Shown here: positions 56,516 through 64,000 of the stretch, in pieces
How the letters are laid out: the number at the start of each line of letters is the position of its first letter
Position numbering within the stretch: position 1 is the first letter of the stretch
Assembly (NCBI GenBank): GCA_000182565.2
Contig: KQ257451.1
Source: Spizellomyces punctatus DAOM BR117
Lineage: Eukaryota
Direction: 5' to 3' (one strand)
Length of the DNA stretch: 64,000 nucleotides
Made by a program: the position numbers and the translations under genes
The notes under the pieces: generated by a model
Told to the model about the DNA's origin: nothing
Database searches by the model: none
The model's input: only the letters and a program-made list of their open reading frames with translations

Positions 56516-59500
56516 CTACGACGCACCAGACAGAACCTCCTTGGCAATCTTGCCGCCTCTTCGCACCGCTTGTTCATCTACGTTCTTCCCCCCAACTTCG
56601 TAACCCTCGCGTGCCCATCCCTTGATAAAGAAACCCAAGCCTTCTCGGACGTTCTCGTTAGTTAATGCTCGGTTGAGAACTTGGCGTAAACCGAGCTCGC
56701 TTTGAGCTAATGTTGTAAAAAGAGTGGACAGAAATAGTTTGAGGAATAGAATTTGGAGGGGCGCGAGGGAGGTATATGTGAGTGCCTACATGGTGAAGTA
56801 CATAAATTTCAGAAAATTAGTGATGATAAAAATTGCCAGGAAATACACACCTTCAGGGCCGTCAGCGTTAGACCATTCGTCCCGATAAGATGTGCGTAAA
56901 GTTTGGCCATATTTGACACCGTTCGTACATCCATTCCTTCGCCTTCCTCTCCAGCTCCTGCTGCCATTGCCTTGAATGCGTCCCAAAGTGCATATTGAAA
57001 TGTAACCTTGAAGCCGTGTGCATGTTGACATACTTTCTGAGCGACGAGTGCATAATATGGATTGTACACGCGTTCTTGGCAGCAACAGTGAACGAGCACC
57101 CTGACGATTTCTCGTTCTTGTTTGTCCTTCAAATTCAATTTGAGCAGTCGTTCGAAAGCATCCACACAATCTTCACTGCTCATTAGGACGATAAACACAC
57201 TGCGCCGAACGTCAGTGTTCATTTTTTGCGCCTTGGCGAGGCGCAATAAATCGTCCTTGGTATCCGCGGCTGTCGTTCTTTGAACGTCGCTGTCACGAAG
57301 TCCGCCCTCGGCGTCAACAGAACCATCGTGTCCAGCCCAAGCTGAGCCCACCAGCCACCATTTCCCCTTGGTCTTTACGGATCGGATATCTGCTAATCCA
57401 ACCCTAAGGGGTTCTGTATTGTGAACATATCTCTTACTTGCTAGATTTGTCACAAACTTCTTCAATCGCTCTTGCTGGGTGCTCTCTCCGCCAGAGGAAA
57501 TTCCTTTCTTTTGCAATTTCCGTTTGTTGTTTTTGAGATCCATTATTGTTTCCACCATAAACTTGAACCTCGTACTGGTACTTCCCACTTCTCGCTTCTT
57601 GACTTCTTCTTGAATCGTCAGGACAATGTCTTTCAGGGCCAACGGATCGTCCGCCCGGAGCTGAAACCCGCAGATCCGCAGCATCTTCAATAGTATCTCG
57701 ACATCCAGCTCGGATAATTCACTGATGGTCATTCGCACGATGTCGTAGATCAGGACGCATGCAACCACTTCGAAATTGTACAGGTATGCCAGTAATATGA
57801 CCAAATTTGTGCATCGCTTGCTCTTGGCCTCTACGCCATCAGGATCCTTTTTGTATCCTGCCAAATACTCTGCTCGAGACTGTTCGAAAAGCTCCACGAT
57901 CGTTTGAACTATGTGCGCTCCAAACTCCACGCCGATTACGTTAAACAGCGTAGCAATGAACGCAGCGTACGTCAGTACAAAGGAATCCAGAAGATTTGCA
58001 TGGTCACCGACAAACGCGACAATAGAGTCAGTCAAAATTTCTGTAACGTCGTGCCGGCTATTGTTTCGGTAGCATTCCTCAATGCTAACGAAAATGGACT
58101 CCATGTTTGCATCGCTCAGTCGGTTCAACAATCCTTGTATCTGTCGCTTCAGGCGTTTATATTGCTCGCTTTGATTTTCAGACTGTTTGCGCAAATGTGG
58201 CGGAACGTATTTCGCCGTCGTAGCCACGTTGGCATCAGTTTGTTCCACACTTTGCTCAAAGTTCTCAGACTGATCATTATCATCACTTTCCCCGGCCAGT
58301 TGTAAGCCATCCTCATCCTCATCCTCGTGGTCACTCTCGTTCTCGCTTTCCGCATCTTGAAGGGATGCATCAACTTCAGGTATCTCGCTCTCATCTGATT
58401 CCTGTCCATCAAAACCCTCGTCAAAACCCTCATCATCAGACTCATCAGAGTCTCCTTCATTTGGAGAGACCGAGCCTTCAATTCCATTTATACCCAGCTC
58501 CGAATCTCTATCAAAATCTGAATCGTCCTCCTCCTCATCCAAGCCCTGTTCACTGCTGTCATTCCTGCGATTCTCAGCCCAGTCCGTTGCGAAGTCTTCG
58601 TCATCCGACTTTATAAAATAATGAAATGAGTACCCGTGTCTCGAAGTGCCGCCAGAAAGAAGTGGAAGTTTACCTCGCCTCCGCCCATGAGCCCTTTGAA
58701 AAGAACTAAGGAAGAGTATAGGTTAGCCCGCTGTACGGAACACAGTCAAAGCAAGAAGCCCACCAACTTACAATCAAGACCATCCTCACTGAATGCTGAA
58801 GGCATCTTCTTCTGATCCTTGATTCCCAATTTTTTAGCATATTTGGCAATTTGCTCTTCGTCAGCACTGAACGCTGACTTTGTCACATCCCCCACAACCA
58901 GTCGTTGTTCGCTCAGCAGCCGGTAAAAGTTCGGATTATTTTTGGCGAGTCGTTCCAATTGACGCTTTTCGGTAGATGGGTCATTTGTTTTGACCTGGGT
59001 CGGTGGTTTTCTAGCCGCTTTCGGCGGCTCAGATACTATCTGAAGTTTGGGTTTCTTTGGGATATCGTCGTGCTGGATTGGCCCTTGCTTTCGCTTCTAT
59101 CCATTGTGTTCTTGGCTTAGGACTTGTTCAAGAGCCGCGATGTTTCAATTTTCAACGCAATACATATCCTCACCTTCGTACCAGGCTCCACTTCTGTTGG
59201 AGGTTGTGTCTTCCGTCCGTAGTGGGCCGAAATTCTCTGCTTCTTCTCTTGCCGCTGCTGTTTACGGTCTGCCTTCCTTGAAAAGGCCTTCTTATTGAAG
59301 CGTAACGCAAAGCGCTGTTCAAGTTCTTTGTCTCCACTACCATCTTACGGTTCGGCACAACAGAAGATACGAGGAAGCGTGAGTTCCAAGCGACATACGA
59401 GCTTGACGAAGGCGCTGCATGTCCATACCAACAGTTCGACTTTCTAACTGGTCACTTAAGCGAGCGGGCAGCTTGGTCGTGTCGTCCGGCTGTCTCCGCC

Positions 59501-59567: not shown

Positions 59568-59734
59568 AGCAAGTTTAACCATAGATGATGTATCAAGTTC
59601 AACATTTTTGGCCAAAAACAATTCAGTGGCACAGCGTGGCACGGCAGTCATGTCCAGACCCACGGACGTACTGATAGATCCGACAGAGCGATCGCCTGCC
59701 TGACGTTTCCAACATTTTGCTTTAACGACGCAAC

Positions 59735-60851
59735 ATGTCTCACAAGCCTCGGAGTATGCCCGTCGGGCAGCGCAATATTCTGCGTCCTAATGACTCGGCT
59801 TCTCTGTGGAACTGTACTCTATCTCCAGGTCGGATTCACAAGACCATTTTGTCATTCAAGTACGATATGTTATTGCTTATCCTTTTTCTTTGAAGGCTGG
59901 ACGCGGGAGGAGTCTGATATTCTTCGAAAAGCGCTGATGAGATTTGGGGTCGGGAACTGGAAGGACATTATGGAGTCTGGGTGCCTTCCAGGAAAGACGA
60001 ACGCACAGCTGAACTTGCAAACCCAGAGACTTTTGGGCCAGCAAAGCACGGCTGGTAAGTCACAGGGACGGCTTGTTTGATGCATTGAGTCCCAGAAAGT
60101 ATGCAATATGGATGTGTAACATCGCTCATCCTCATAACATAGAATTTCAGATGCTCCATATCGACCCTCTTGTCATTGGGGAAAAAAATGCACAAATACA
60201 AGGAGAGCATGTGAAGCGAAAAAATGGGTTCATTGTCAATTCAGGAGGTTCGTAGATTGAACCATGCGATATCCTTGACTCAGAATCTCTGACTATTGAA
60301 TGATAAAGGGAAATTGTCGCGGGAGGAGAAGTTGCGTAGAATAAAGGAAAACAAGGAAAAGTAAGTAGTGGACGGAGTCCAATCAAACCCCACCTGACCA
60401 GGGTCACTTATAATACCTTATAGGTATGAACTTCCGGAGGATGTATGGAGCAAGATAGACCTTCCCCGACGCGATGATGTAAGTTTTCACCTCTCCAGAA
60501 CTACCTTGAATGAGAACATTGATTTGCCCTGCTTGCCCTGCTCTCTGACTGATATGATCCTAGCCGGTAATACGTAGGTGTTTGATTGGCCCTTGCATAT
60601 TCATCGAGAAGTTTGAAGTATGACTGATCACATGTTCATAATGCGCAGTGCTTGAACAGAAAGAGCGACAGTTGGCAGAAATGCAGCAAGAGCTCATCAA
60701 GGTGCGGGAATGGATTCAGGATAGACGAACAGAAGTAACAAAAGATGCCAAAGCATTGTCGCTGGAGCTGGACTCCTTTGTCGAGAATGACGAGAATCTT
60801 GATATAATGGAAGAAACATCGAGAGGCAAGCGGATAAAACGATCACCATAA
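59735..60851 (+). CDS. p1 (AMTP1)-like HTH/Myb subunit of the MTA1c DNA N6-adenine methyltransferase complex
   Basis: Spliced product SLWNCTLSPGWTREESDILRKALMRFGVGNWKDIMESGCLPGKTNAQLNLQTQRLLGQQSTAEF..HID...RKNGFIVNSG..SREEKLRRIKENKEKY, matching the ciliate p1 N-terminal domain as I recall it. Confidence 0.8.
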
Positions 60852-61014
60852 CTAGGATCCTGTACATAGAATAGCATACGTAGCAAAATGACGGTTTCCC
60901 AGAACTCTCCAACAAGCGTTGCGAGAACAGTGTGAAGAGGATTTTTATTACCATCCAGTCGCTAGATTTGTGTGGGGACGCTGTATGCTTTGTATGTCGG
61001 TCGCAATATGTCAT

Positions 61015-61596
61015 CTATACCCTCAGACGTTGCTCTTCCTCCAAAATTGATGCCACCCAATCTGCTGCCTCCCGGCCCGATTGAAGATCCCTAGTTCGTG
61101 TCCTGTAATCAAGCAACATCTGTAAGAACCAAATCCAATGAATTTTGCACAAGATCGACGTGACGATAAACCTTGCAGGAAGTTGGAAGAAGTCAAACTC
61201 CGTCTGCAAATCCCAGTAAAGACCAAACCTAGAAAGGGGTCAGTACTTAATTCAGCAGTGAAATAACAAGAGATGTACGAACCGGTCGAGTCGGTCAATA
61301 GACAGGTCCCGGACGAGATTCGCCTCGAGGTTCACCTGCACATGCGCGTGAGTTTGAGTCAGGTTGGCACTAGACCAAAGCGCCAGATCACAGGCCTCAC
61401 GCACCTTTTCTTGCGCAACCTTTGCGTAGTCAAAGAGCATATCCAGGACCTTCTCATCAACCTCAGCCTTTGTGTAGTGTTTTGGTGGGGCGATAGTTTT
61501 TTGGTATAGAGTTCTAGTAAAGGGAGACAGTGGAGCGACGAATGCTCGAGGAGAAATAGCAGCCACACGCATAGGAGCCGCAAAGAGCGAACGCAT
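61015..61596 (-). CDS. Mitochondrial acyl-carrier-protein-like paralog lacking the Ppant-acceptor serine
   Basis: Presequence MRSLFAAPMRVAA; ACP-like EVDEKVLDML...EANLVRDLSIDRLDR..DLQTEFD..LP...LQSGREAADWV. Confidence 0.7.
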
Positions 61597-61762: not shown

Positions 61763-63067
61763 ATGAGTAAGGAACGGTCGCCTACAATGGCGCAAGCTTT
61801 ATTGGTGCGTTCGGGATATCAAAGATGGTCAGTGTGTCTCTTTCATTTGATAACAATCAGTTGCCGTAGGCAGGCGGACTTGCTGGGACCGCTGTCGATG
61901 TTGCCCTCTTCCCTCTTGATACAATAAAGACTCGGCTGGTGGGTAATGTGCCTTTACCATTTGCTGAATGGACTGCACTGTGTTACCACGTTTTGAGAGT
62001 CATGACACTTTAAAGTACGCATTAGCAAACTAAGGGAGGTTTTTGGGCCTCAGGAGGATTTTCCGGAGTGTACTCTGGTCTATCGTCAGTAGTAATAGGA
62101 TCAGCACCGGGAGGTATGCGACGAGTCACCCTGTCCTGAATTTGATTACTATTATGATAATCGTAACTGTCCATCCTTACAGCTGCCGCTTTTTTTGTGA
62201 CTTATGAATATCTGAAACGGAAGCTGGCCAGTGCGCTGCCTGGGCGAAACCGCGAACCGTTGGTGCATATGATTGCTGCATCCGGTGGAGAAGTTGTAGG
62301 TCTACTTATTTTAGATCCGACATCTTTGCGGGGTTATGAATTTTTGAATCAGGCCGCATGCTTTATTCGCGTACCAACGGAAGTTGTCAAGCAGCGAATG
62401 CAAACTGGCCAGTATCGAAGTGTATCGCTAGCCTTGACATCTATAATGAAGTTGAATGGAATACGAGGTTTTTATCAAGGCTACTCAATGACAGTTTTTC
62501 GCGAAGTCTGTTTTCCTTTTCTGCTCCTTCATATATTCATTGTTTTCTGATCAATAACCTAACACCAGATTCCATTCACATGCATCCAATTTCCGCTATA
62601 TGAGCGATTTAAGGTTGGTCTTCAACGTCCGGCCGTCTGGTGCATATGTCTATACCCACTATTCCTACGAACAGAAAATATGGGCTGACTGGGAGGGTAG
62701 ACCAGTGTATCCGTGGGAGGCGGCCCTATTTGGGTCAGTTGCTGGAGGAATTGCGGCCGCGTTGACGACGCCTCTGGACGTTGTTAAGACGAGGATCATG
62801 CTCTCCACAAAGGTAACAAAACCAGGTGTATTTGTGAAAAGCTGTTTAACAAACTGACTGTTTTTTTAACAGAGAGGAGGCGCCGTTGGTATATTGGAGA
62901 CGTTTCGTGCAATTGTCGCAAAGGAGGGTGCGCGAACGCTTTTTTCTGGTGTCGGGCCGCGGGTTATATGGATATCGATCGGAGGTAGCATCTTCCTGGG
63001 CGTTTATGAAGCGGCGATGAACCTACTGGTGGATGGTAGACTGAGTGCTCATTCGTTCGACCTGTAG
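61763..63067 (+). CDS. SAM5: Mitochondrial S-adenosylmethionine carrier (SLC25A26/Pet8)
   Basis: [82 protein letters not shown]. Confidence 0.93.
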
Positions 63068-63230: not shown

Positions 63231-64000
63231 TTAAATGAGACCCTTCGCTACCGCTACCTCGGCATTCATGATACTGCTTCCTGCAGCGCCCAAGATGGTG
63301 TTGTGGGAGAGTAGCGAGAACTTAACATCGAAGATGTTGCACTTTCGTACCCGCCCAACCGCGACAGTGTTTCCATTTCCGATCATTATGTCCATTCGTG
63401 GCTGCGGTCGATCAGCCTCTTTCATCACAACGACCGCATGTTCAGGTGCCGATGGGACACCCAACTTCTGTGCATCCGATGTGTAGGATTGTAGGGCCTC
63501 GATGATCTGTTCGATCGATGGTGCTGGGCACTTTTGGAACTCCACCATGACGCTTTCCATATGTCCATCGATGACAGGGACACGGTTGCAGCTTGCCGAC
63601 ACCTTCATCTCTGGCAAATTTGAGAATCCAGTTAAATCTGCAGTGACCCCTCCGAGGATTTTGGAGCATTCGATTTCTATCTTCTCTTCTTCGCCGGATA
63701 TGTACGGCACAACATTACCCAGGATATCCAAACTCGGCACACCTGGATACCCAGCTCCGGAGATCGCTTGCATGGTAGTGACAACCACGCGAGAGAGTGG
63801 ACCAAAGGCATCTTGGAGAGCCTTCAATGGAACGACGAGACCAGTGGTGGAGCAGTTTGCGTTTGTGATGATGAAGCCTTTGCTCAGTCCGTGAACCTTG
63901 CGTTGATGTGCAATGACGTCAAAATGGGATGTATTAACGAGGGGAACAATGAGAGGAACAATAGGGTCCATGCGATAGTTCTTTGCATTTGAGAATACAG
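63231..64000 (-). CDS. HOM2: Aspartate-semialdehyde dehydrogenase (3' part)
   Basis: NANCSTTGLVVPLKAL; TMQAISGAGYPGV; SASCNRVPVIDGH; LSHNTILGAAGSSIMNAE. Confidence 0.96.
   Translation of the reverse strand, partial: VFSNAKNYRMDPIVPLIVPLVNTSHFDVIAHQRKVHGLSKGFIITNANCSTTGLVVPLKALQDAFGPLSRVVVTTMQAISGAGYPGVPSLDILGNVVPYISGEEEKIEIECSKILGGVTADLTGFSNLPEMKVSASCNRVPVIDGHMESVMVEFQKCPAPSIEQIIEALQSYTSDAQKLGVPSAPEHAVVVMKEADRPQPRMDIMIGNGNTVAVGRVRKCNIFDVKFSLLSHNTILGAAGSSIMNAEVAVAKGLI

What the first reader, a model, noticed from the sequence alone, without database searches (positions are those of the whole stretch)
61015..61596. Mitochondrial ACP paralog with DSLD changed to DRLD: a pseudo-carrier that cannot be phosphopantetheinylated
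Seen: a mitochondrial-type presequence and an ACP-like body where canonical DLGLDSLD reads DLSIDRLD (Arg codon CGA at 61291-61293, minus strand). The frame is intact across three GT-AG introns. Known: the DSL serine carries 4'-phosphopantetheine, which is needed for mtFAS and for acyl-dependent LYRM binding in complex I and Fe-S assembly. Inference: a structural or decoy ACP, e.g. a complex I or mitoribosome-assembly subunit independent of acylation state.
Basis: partly seen in the sequence, partly recalled or inferred. Interest (0 to 1): 0.7.

Follow-up and report, generated by a model that had tools for sequence, protein, structure and literature searches.

The report
Chytrid cofactor-free mitochondrial ACP paralog
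Chytrid fungi carry a second, expressed copy of the mitochondrial acyl carrier protein that has usually lost the cofactor-bearing serine and nearly always the acidic docking surface, so it probably serves as a structural part of a large mitochondrial complex rather than as a carrier or a decoy.

Summary
The gene (minus strand, 61596-61015, three introns) is spliced and polyadenylated in RNA reads, and the Arg codon shows no variant. Its 129-aa product folds as an acyl carrier protein (ACP). A canonical Ser-bearing mitochondrial ACP gene lies elsewhere in the genome.

The protein belongs to a single clade found in 24 named chytrid species. One environmental contig has it in tandem with canonical ACP. 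Arg is not conserved: the site reads R15, D7, K4, S4, Y1, Q1 of 32. The conserved change is next door. Helix II reads R-F/Y-G, and the two Glu residues that bind LYR proteins are gone (Glu kept in 1 and 2 of 32). The genome's ISD11, NDUFB9 and NDUFA6 keep cofactor-binding features.

A decoy for LYR proteins is therefore unlikely. A repurposed structural subunit with a new partner is the best reading (about 0.6). The partner is unknown: a respiratory or ATP-synthase site, or an mL50-like mitoribosome site. Ser-less ACP folds are known in Plasmodium, Tetrahymena ATP synthase and mL50. This scan noted Ser-less ACP look-alikes before in phages and bacteria, not this family. New variant of a known kind.

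The parts
61405..61596 (-). Exon 1 (codons 1-64): presequence-like N-terminus, basic Pro-rich extension, ACP helix I
61510..61596 (-). Putative mitochondrial presequence (about residues 1-29); inferred, variable in length across the family
   Evidence: composition; alignment
61336..61404 (-). Intron 1, phase 0; same position as intron 1 of the canonical ACP gene of this genome and of the L085 ortholog
61283..61335 (-). Exon 2: loop I and start of helix II with DLSIDRLD
61291..61293 (-). CGA = Arg79, at the phosphopantetheine-serine position
61229..61282 (-). Intron 2, phase 2, inside the Arg82 codon; conserved in the L085 ortholog
61172..61228 (-). Exon 3: remodelled helix II; Phe83, Gly84 (61224-61222, canonical Glu+5), Trp87, Asp88, Gln90 (61206-61204, canonical Glu+11), Phe93
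61103..61171 (-). Intron 3, phase 2; conserved in the L085 ortholog
61015..61102 (-). Exon 4 coding part: basic loop in place of the acidic helix III region, SGRE cap and helix IV, C-terminal RL, stop
60926..61014 (-). 3' UTR ending in a poly(A) site near 60926
   Evidence: 14 reads with untemplated T before 60926

Best explanation
The mitochondrial ACP gene was duplicated early in chytrid evolution. One copy kept the carrier job: phosphopantetheine on Ser, fatty-acid synthesis and LYR-protein binding. The other kept the four-helix ACP scaffold but stopped needing the cofactor. Its serine site now varies freely, the acidic faces read by transferases, FAS enzymes and LYR proteins were replaced by a conserved R-F/Y-G-x-x-W-D helix II and a basic loop, and it binds a new fixed partner as a cofactor-independent structural subunit of a large mitochondrial complex. 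Shown: gene, expression, fold, paralogy, loss of Ser and Glu, purifying selection. Inferred: mitochondrial location, and that it is a subunit. Not known: which complex. My split of the whole probability is a new site on ATP synthase or a respiratory complex (ATPTT11-like) about 0.35, a mitoribosome site filled by a non-orthologous ACP copy or another stable complex about 0.25, and the rivals below for the rest.
For: Expression and splicing. ACP fold, with mitochondrial ACPs as best matches. Canonical ACP with DSLD at G000:C2:1698827. A stand-alone FabF-type ketosynthase gene and four PPTase-domain matches are present, so the carrier pathway looks intact. The family is one clade against canonical ACPs, support 100/100. 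Duplication: shared phase-0 intron 1 and a tandem canonical-plus-paralog pair about 180 bp apart in L085. Selection: 51 of 90 core residues are identical with the L085 ortholog while only 5 of 16 four-fold sites match. Column counts of 32: +3 R28/K3, +4 F19/Y11, +5 G25 (E1), +9 D26, +11 E2. Those two Glu bind the LYR motif and are kept in Plasmodium mACP (PMC8547962, passages). ACPs have pI 3.9-4.3 (PMC11293456, passages). The genome's canonical ACP has pI 4.24; the paralog has 5.18, and the family 4.4-8.8 over 27 rows. Precedents for cofactor-free ACP-fold subunits: Tetrahymena ATPTT11 (PMC7583250, passage) and mL50 (PMC6367999, supplement Table S3).
Against: No partner, localisation or proteomic evidence was obtained. 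Four members keep a complete DSLD (P0007, P0014, P0020, P0027) and two more keep DS (P0026, L085), so cofactor independence is not shown for every lineage. A shared fold shows no function: the Tetrahymena ATP synthase chain scores Z 10.6, tied with ordinary ACPs. Surface assignments rest on alignment to ACP and recalled ACP structure, not on solvent-accessibility calculations.
Confidence: 0.6

Rival explanations
1. It is the true chytrid ortholog of mitoribosomal protein mL50, an ACP-derived subunit that bridges uL4m and mL49.
For: mL50 is classed as ACP-like and was gained in opisthokonts (PMC6367999, passages and Table S3). Its partners mL49 and uL4m are in this genome. No PF10501 match was found in the genome. 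A yeast mitoribosome chain (8ux4_8; mL50 by recall) matches the model at Z 7.6, rmsd 3.2, 80 aligned. A basic-plus-Phe pair at +3/+4 is recalled for mL50 (from memory, not tested).
Against: 0 of 33 members hit PF10501 at E up to 10, though only 1 of 33 hit PF00550 either. No mL50 appears among the 60 best solved-structure hits shown of 113 and 109, which are all ACPs. Animal and Dikarya mL50 share one Pfam family (recalled), so a chytrid ortholog should resemble them more than ACP. Tandem linkage to canonical ACP in L085 fits a younger duplication. The PF10501 blank is weak: the same kind of search with PF00550 missed the intron-split canonical ACP gene.
Confidence: 0.13
2. One reading: it occupies LYRM-bound ACP sites (complex I, ISD11-NFS1, mitoribosome assembly) independent of acylation, like Plasmodium mACP.
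For: Plasmodium precedent (PMC8547962). The fold is intact and closest to complex I ACP chains. Some LYRMs such as FMC1 need no acyl chain (PMC11293456, passage). One database protein (P0007) joins the domain to IND1/NUBPL, a complex I assembly factor.
Against: Glu+5 is kept in 1 of 32 and Glu+11 in 2 of 32, whereas Plasmodium mACP keeps both. ISD11 keeps Lys at the Arg-6 position, NDUFB9 and NDUFA6 keep Arg at -6, and all 11 LYR loci seen keep an aromatic-plus-basic motif (read by eye). Plasmodium Isd11 changed Arg-6 to Ile. The canonical ACP is present. IND1 is unlinked in this genome, so the P0007 join may be a gene-calling merge.
Confidence: 0.1
3. The family is a specialised carrier in the lineages that keep Ser, and a Ser-less relic or regulator in the rest.
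For: Complete DSLD in 4 members from separate parts of the tree.
Against: Ser-bearing members are scattered (3-4 changes, no clustering against shuffles) and share the remodelled helix II. Sister rows differ (P0027 Ser; P0011 and P0016 Arg). The residues seen (R, D, K, S) are consistent with a free helix-start position (inference).
Confidence: 0.07
4. It is a soluble regulator or chaperone that binds one mitochondrial enzyme or RNA transiently, not a stable subunit.
For: Conserved basic and aromatic surface; small size; no membrane segment in the model.
Against: Conservation spreads over several faces, including the N-terminal extension and the C-terminus, which better fits a buried subunit (inference).
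Confidence: 0.1

Closest known systems
Mitochondrial acyl carrier protein (NDUFAB1, ACPM1/2, Acp1; Pfam PF00550)
   Same: Four-helix ACP fold (Z 11.5, rmsd 2.0); 30% identity to the genome's own canonical ACP; presequence-like N-terminus; shared intron 1.
   Different: Ser is usually absent; Glu+5 and Glu+11 and the acidic helix III region are replaced; higher pI; below Pfam detection.
Apicomplexan Ser-less mACP (Plasmodium PF3D7_1208300; Toxoplasma paralogs), PMC8547962
   Same: Mitochondrial ACP homolog without the phosphopantetheine serine.
   Different: Plasmodium lost mitochondrial FASII, keeps the LYR-binding Glu residues, needs a fixed Phe and has a co-evolved Isd11. Here a canonical ACP and a ketosynthase remain, the site is variable, the Glu residues are gone and ISD11 is ordinary.
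Tetrahymena ATP synthase subunit ATPTT11 (PMC7583250)
   Same: ACP fold with no phosphopantetheine, used as a lineage-specific structural subunit. Chain 6ynx_q matches at Z 10.6, rmsd 5.0, 92 aligned; that this chain is ATPTT11 is inferred from the paper's description.
   Different: 13% identity, unrelated lineage; analogy only, no evidence of orthology or of the same binding site.
Mitoribosomal protein mL50 (MRPL50, Mrpl13; Pfam PF10501)
   Same: ACP-like fold in opisthokont mitochondria, structural role; no cofactor (recalled).
   Different: No family member hits PF10501; sequence and structure are closer to true mitochondrial ACP (Z about 11 against 7.6).

Membership tests
Functional mitochondrial ACP | ACP four-helix fold | tested here: met
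Functional mitochondrial ACP | Ser at the start of helix II for 4'-phosphopantetheine | tested here: not met
   Arg79, codon CGA 61293-61291; Ser in 4 of 32 aligned members
Functional mitochondrial ACP | Glu at +5 and +11 for LYR-motif binding | tested here: not met
   Gly84 and Gln90; Glu in 1 and 2 of 32
Functional mitochondrial ACP | Strongly acidic protein (pI about 4) | tested here: not met
   pI 5.18 against 4.24 for the canonical copy
Functional mitochondrial ACP | Mitochondrial matrix location | not testable with these tools
   Only N-terminal composition and homology
Apicomplexan-type Ser-less mACP | Replaces canonical mACP after loss of mitochondrial FASII | tested here: not met
   Canonical ACP and a FabF-type ketosynthase gene are present
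Apicomplexan-type Ser-less mACP | Keeps LYR-binding Glu; Isd11 loses Arg-6 | tested here: not met
   PMC8547962 passages
mL50 | Match to Pfam PF10501 | tested here: not met
   0 of 33 members at E up to 10; caveat: PF00550 also found only 1 of 33
mL50 | ACP-like fold | tested here: met
   the fold is shared with all ACPs, so it does not discriminate
mL50 | No other mL50 gene in the genome | tested here: inconclusive
   PF10501 search found 0 candidates; a recalled-motif pattern gave 38 hits, none mL50-like by eye; both are insensitive to intron-split genes
mL50 | Binds uL4m and mL49 in the large subunit | not tested
   Needs co-folding, proteomics or cryo-EM
ATPTT11-like ATP synthase subunit | Part of the Fo region of ATP synthase | not testable with these tools
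   Only fold likeness

The most novel reading that the evidence does not exclude
Chytrids independently rebuilt a duplicate of mitochondrial ACP into a dedicated, cofactor-free subunit of ATP synthase, a respiratory complex or the mitoribosome (in place of mL50). It is still close enough to its parent, and in one lineage still next to it, to show residue by residue how a carrier becomes a structural subunit, with Ser-bearing and Ser-less states side by side.
Probability: 0.45. Interest if true: 0.65.

Novelty: new variant of a known kind. Interest (0 to 1): 0.45.

Why it matters
Falekun et al. (PMC8547962, passage seen) found divergent Ser-less mitochondrial ACPs outside Apicomplexa only in Vitrella. 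This family adds a phylum-wide fungal case of a different type: an extra paralog beside an intact carrier, with the LYR-binding face rebuilt. It points to an uncharacterised subunit of chytrid mitochondrial complexes, and it corrects a database label, since UniRef names the protein 'Acyl carrier protein'. It also gives a tractable model for how mL50- and ATPTT11-like subunits arose from ACP. The kind of event is known, so the surprise is moderate until the partner is found.

Tried and rejected
Sequencing error or pseudogene: rejected (RNA reads; orthologs; selection). Alternative intron 3 models listed: rejected by the read joint. Arg as a conserved functional residue: rejected.

Co-folding with uL4m gave no verdict: no structure was produced, so it says nothing about the pair. 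Co-folding with LYR proteins was not run.

Looking for mL50 among solved-structure hits with divergent members gave nothing useful: P0038 had 7 weak hits, best E 0.09; P0017 had 0; a 10-member profile again gave only ACPs in the 60 shown of 109. The Atlas feature search without ACP families gave only scores of 0.80-0.81, with no PF10501 row. The recalled mL50 motif pattern gave 38 genomic hits against 15 for the control, none mL50-like by eye. No RNA holder was listed in the run index; the raw-read run X9 supplied the evidence. Pairwise dS against L085 was saturated and could not be computed.

The tree used a mis-spliced canonical ACP row and was replaced. Rows dropped from counts: P0070 (near copy of P0011) from the column tally. 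P0007, P0032, P0045, P0053, P0071, P0072 and P0079 were not in alignment A4. P0026 and P0042 (fragments) and P0070 were left out of the trees, and P0056 out.

Literature: searches listed no paper on this family ('pseudo-ACP' 0 papers; 0 papers). I did not search full texts by locus tag, and the library lacks most subscription papers. The supplement of PMC7947838 (mitoribosomal protein distribution) could not be read and may say whether chytrids have mL50. Term look-ups in PMC10214729, PMC10952624 and PMC13632651 found nothing relevant.

Full report
Observation. The gene lies on the minus strand with exons 61596-61405, 61335-61283, 61228-61172 and 61102-61015. The codon at 61293-61291 is CGA, within DLSIDRLD. 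RNA run X9 (about 6 in 100 of the run read; 1277 reads laid) shows all three GT-AG joints with 9, 10 and 34 reads, a poly(A) end near 60926 and no variant at the Arg codon. Spliced contigs of run X6 cover the codon without differences. The product equals database protein P0002, named SPPG_01465 of Spizellomyces punctatus and labelled 'Acyl carrier protein' by UniRef. The presequence is inferred from composition only.

Fold and origin. Pfam finds nothing. Solved-structure searches give mitochondrial ACPs first (E 2.6e-7; profile E 1.1e-10), and profile comparison with an ACP gives 97% probability. The AlphaFold model (pLDDT 85.8) matches mitochondrial ACP at Z 11.5, rmsd 2.0 over 85 residues. 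Arg79 aligns with the cofactor serine. A canonical ACP gene with DSLD lies on the same contig about 152 kb away. It encodes 127 aa, is 30% identical, and shares the phase-0 first intron, but not introns 2 and 3. In metagenome locus L085 a family member lies about 180 bp downstream of a canonical ACP gene on the same strand, which points to tandem duplication; this rests on one contig. All three introns are conserved in that ortholog, with 51 of 90 core residues identical and 5 of 16 four-fold sites matching.

Family. A search of 1.84 billion representatives gave 67 hits. About 30 are family members; the rest score lower and, where inspected (5 aligned) or judged by length and repeated matches, are canonical or multi-domain ACPs. 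The 24 species that carry a name are chytrids of 22 genera. Two were checked in the taxonomy; the rest are chytrids by my knowledge. Twelve further family-like sequences are unnamed or were not looked up, so the range outside Chytridiomycota is not excluded. The family is one clade against 5 canonical ACPs, support 100/100.

What is conserved. In 32 aligned rows the serine site reads R15, D7, K4, S4, Y1, Q1. P0007 and the L085 protein also have Ser, making 6 of 34, four with a full DSLD. These are scattered inside the clade (3-4 changes). The strong signal is beside it: +3 R28/K3, +4 F19/Y11, +5 G25 with one Glu, +8 W18, +9 D26, +11 two Glu. The acidic region after helix II becomes a basic loop. 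Falekun et al. (PMC8547962; passages and part of the abstract seen) name the Glu at +5 and +11 as the contacts for the LYR motif, and report that Plasmodium's Ser-less mACP keeps them while its Isd11 swapped Arg-6 for Ile. Here the reverse holds. The Glu residues are gone, ISD11 keeps Lys at that position, NDUFB9 and NDUFA6 (identified) keep Arg at -6, and all 11 LYR loci seen keep an aromatic-plus-basic motif (read by eye; a lower bound on the LYR set). A stand-alone FabF-type ketosynthase gene and four PPTase-domain matches are present (mitochondrial targeting not checked). The calculated pI is 5.18 against 4.24 for the canonical copy; ACPs are given as 3.9-4.3 in PMC11293456 (passages).

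Mechanism. The most likely reading is division of labour after duplication. The canonical copy stays the carrier and LYR activator. The paralog keeps the scaffold, drops the cofactor and docks on a new fixed partner through the remodelled helix II, the basic loop and a conserved basic, Pro-rich N-terminal extension (about 0.6). Gene, expression, fold, paralogy and residue changes are shown. Location and subunit role are inferred. The partner is unknown.

Known precedents. Tetrahymena ATPTT11 has the ACP fold with no phosphopantetheine in the Fo part of ATP synthase (PMC7583250, passage). A chain of that structure matches the model at Z 10.6, tied with ordinary ACPs. mL50 is classed as ACP-like and stabilises uL4m with mL49 (PMC6367999, passages and supplement Tables S3-S4), and loss of uL4m blocks its recruitment (PMC11638073, passage). 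For mL50: its partners are in the genome, PF10501 found nothing, and a yeast mitoribosome chain matches at Z 7.6 (identity recalled). Against: 0 of 33 members hit PF10501, the family is closer to true ACP by sequence and structure, and the PF10501 blank is weak because PF00550 likewise missed the intron-split canonical gene. True mL50 orthology is put at about 0.13; a non-orthologous mitoribosome role is inside the best reading.

Novelty. Ser-less mitochondrial ACP folds used as subunits are a known kind. I found no description of this chytrid family in ten library searches. The library lacks most subscription papers, no locus-tag search was run, and the supplement of PMC7947838 could not be read. 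Earlier notes of this scan cover Ser-less ACP look-alikes in phages and bacteria and nothing like this sequence. Verdict: a real, expressed, phylum-wide cofactor-free ACP paralog; new variant of a known kind; interest 0.45.

Noticed in passing
L085:649-984 and L085:1161-1820: An intronless canonical mitochondrial ACP gene sits directly upstream of a three-intron, Ser-bearing family member on the same strand. A frame on the opposite strand resembles the dynein assembly factor DNAAF3 (recalled motif, not tested).
   Followed up: yes
P0007 (Blyttiomyces record): The family domain is joined to an IND1/NUBPL ATPase; a real fusion or a gene-calling merge. The IND1-like gene is unlinked (contig C1) in this genome.
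   Followed up: partly
window 61870-63067 (+): A mitochondrial carrier gene (PF00153; SAM-carrier-like by recall) lies head to head with the ACP paralog, about 270 bp away; a shared divergent promoter is possible.
   Followed up: partly
window 60700-61027: Reads from a convergent plus-strand transcript overlap the 3' UTR of the ACP paralog; the neighbour may be the Myb-like gene near 59589-60851.
   Followed up: no
window 61220: 6 of 59 RNA reads show another letter near the start of exon 3; probably misalignment at the splice junction.
   Followed up: no
window 61336-61404: Intron 1 is 69 nt with no in-frame stop, so retention would keep the frame; depth in the bin inside it was 0.
   Followed up: yes
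window 63231-63998 (-) and 56809-59344 (-): Ordinary neighbours: aspartate-semialdehyde dehydrogenase C-terminal domain, and a MIF4G/MA3 protein.
   Followed up: partly
G000 contigs C5, C8, C10, C3, C24: Many carrier-protein domains in long open frames (NRPS/PKS-like clusters) among the 27 PF00550 matches.
   Followed up: no
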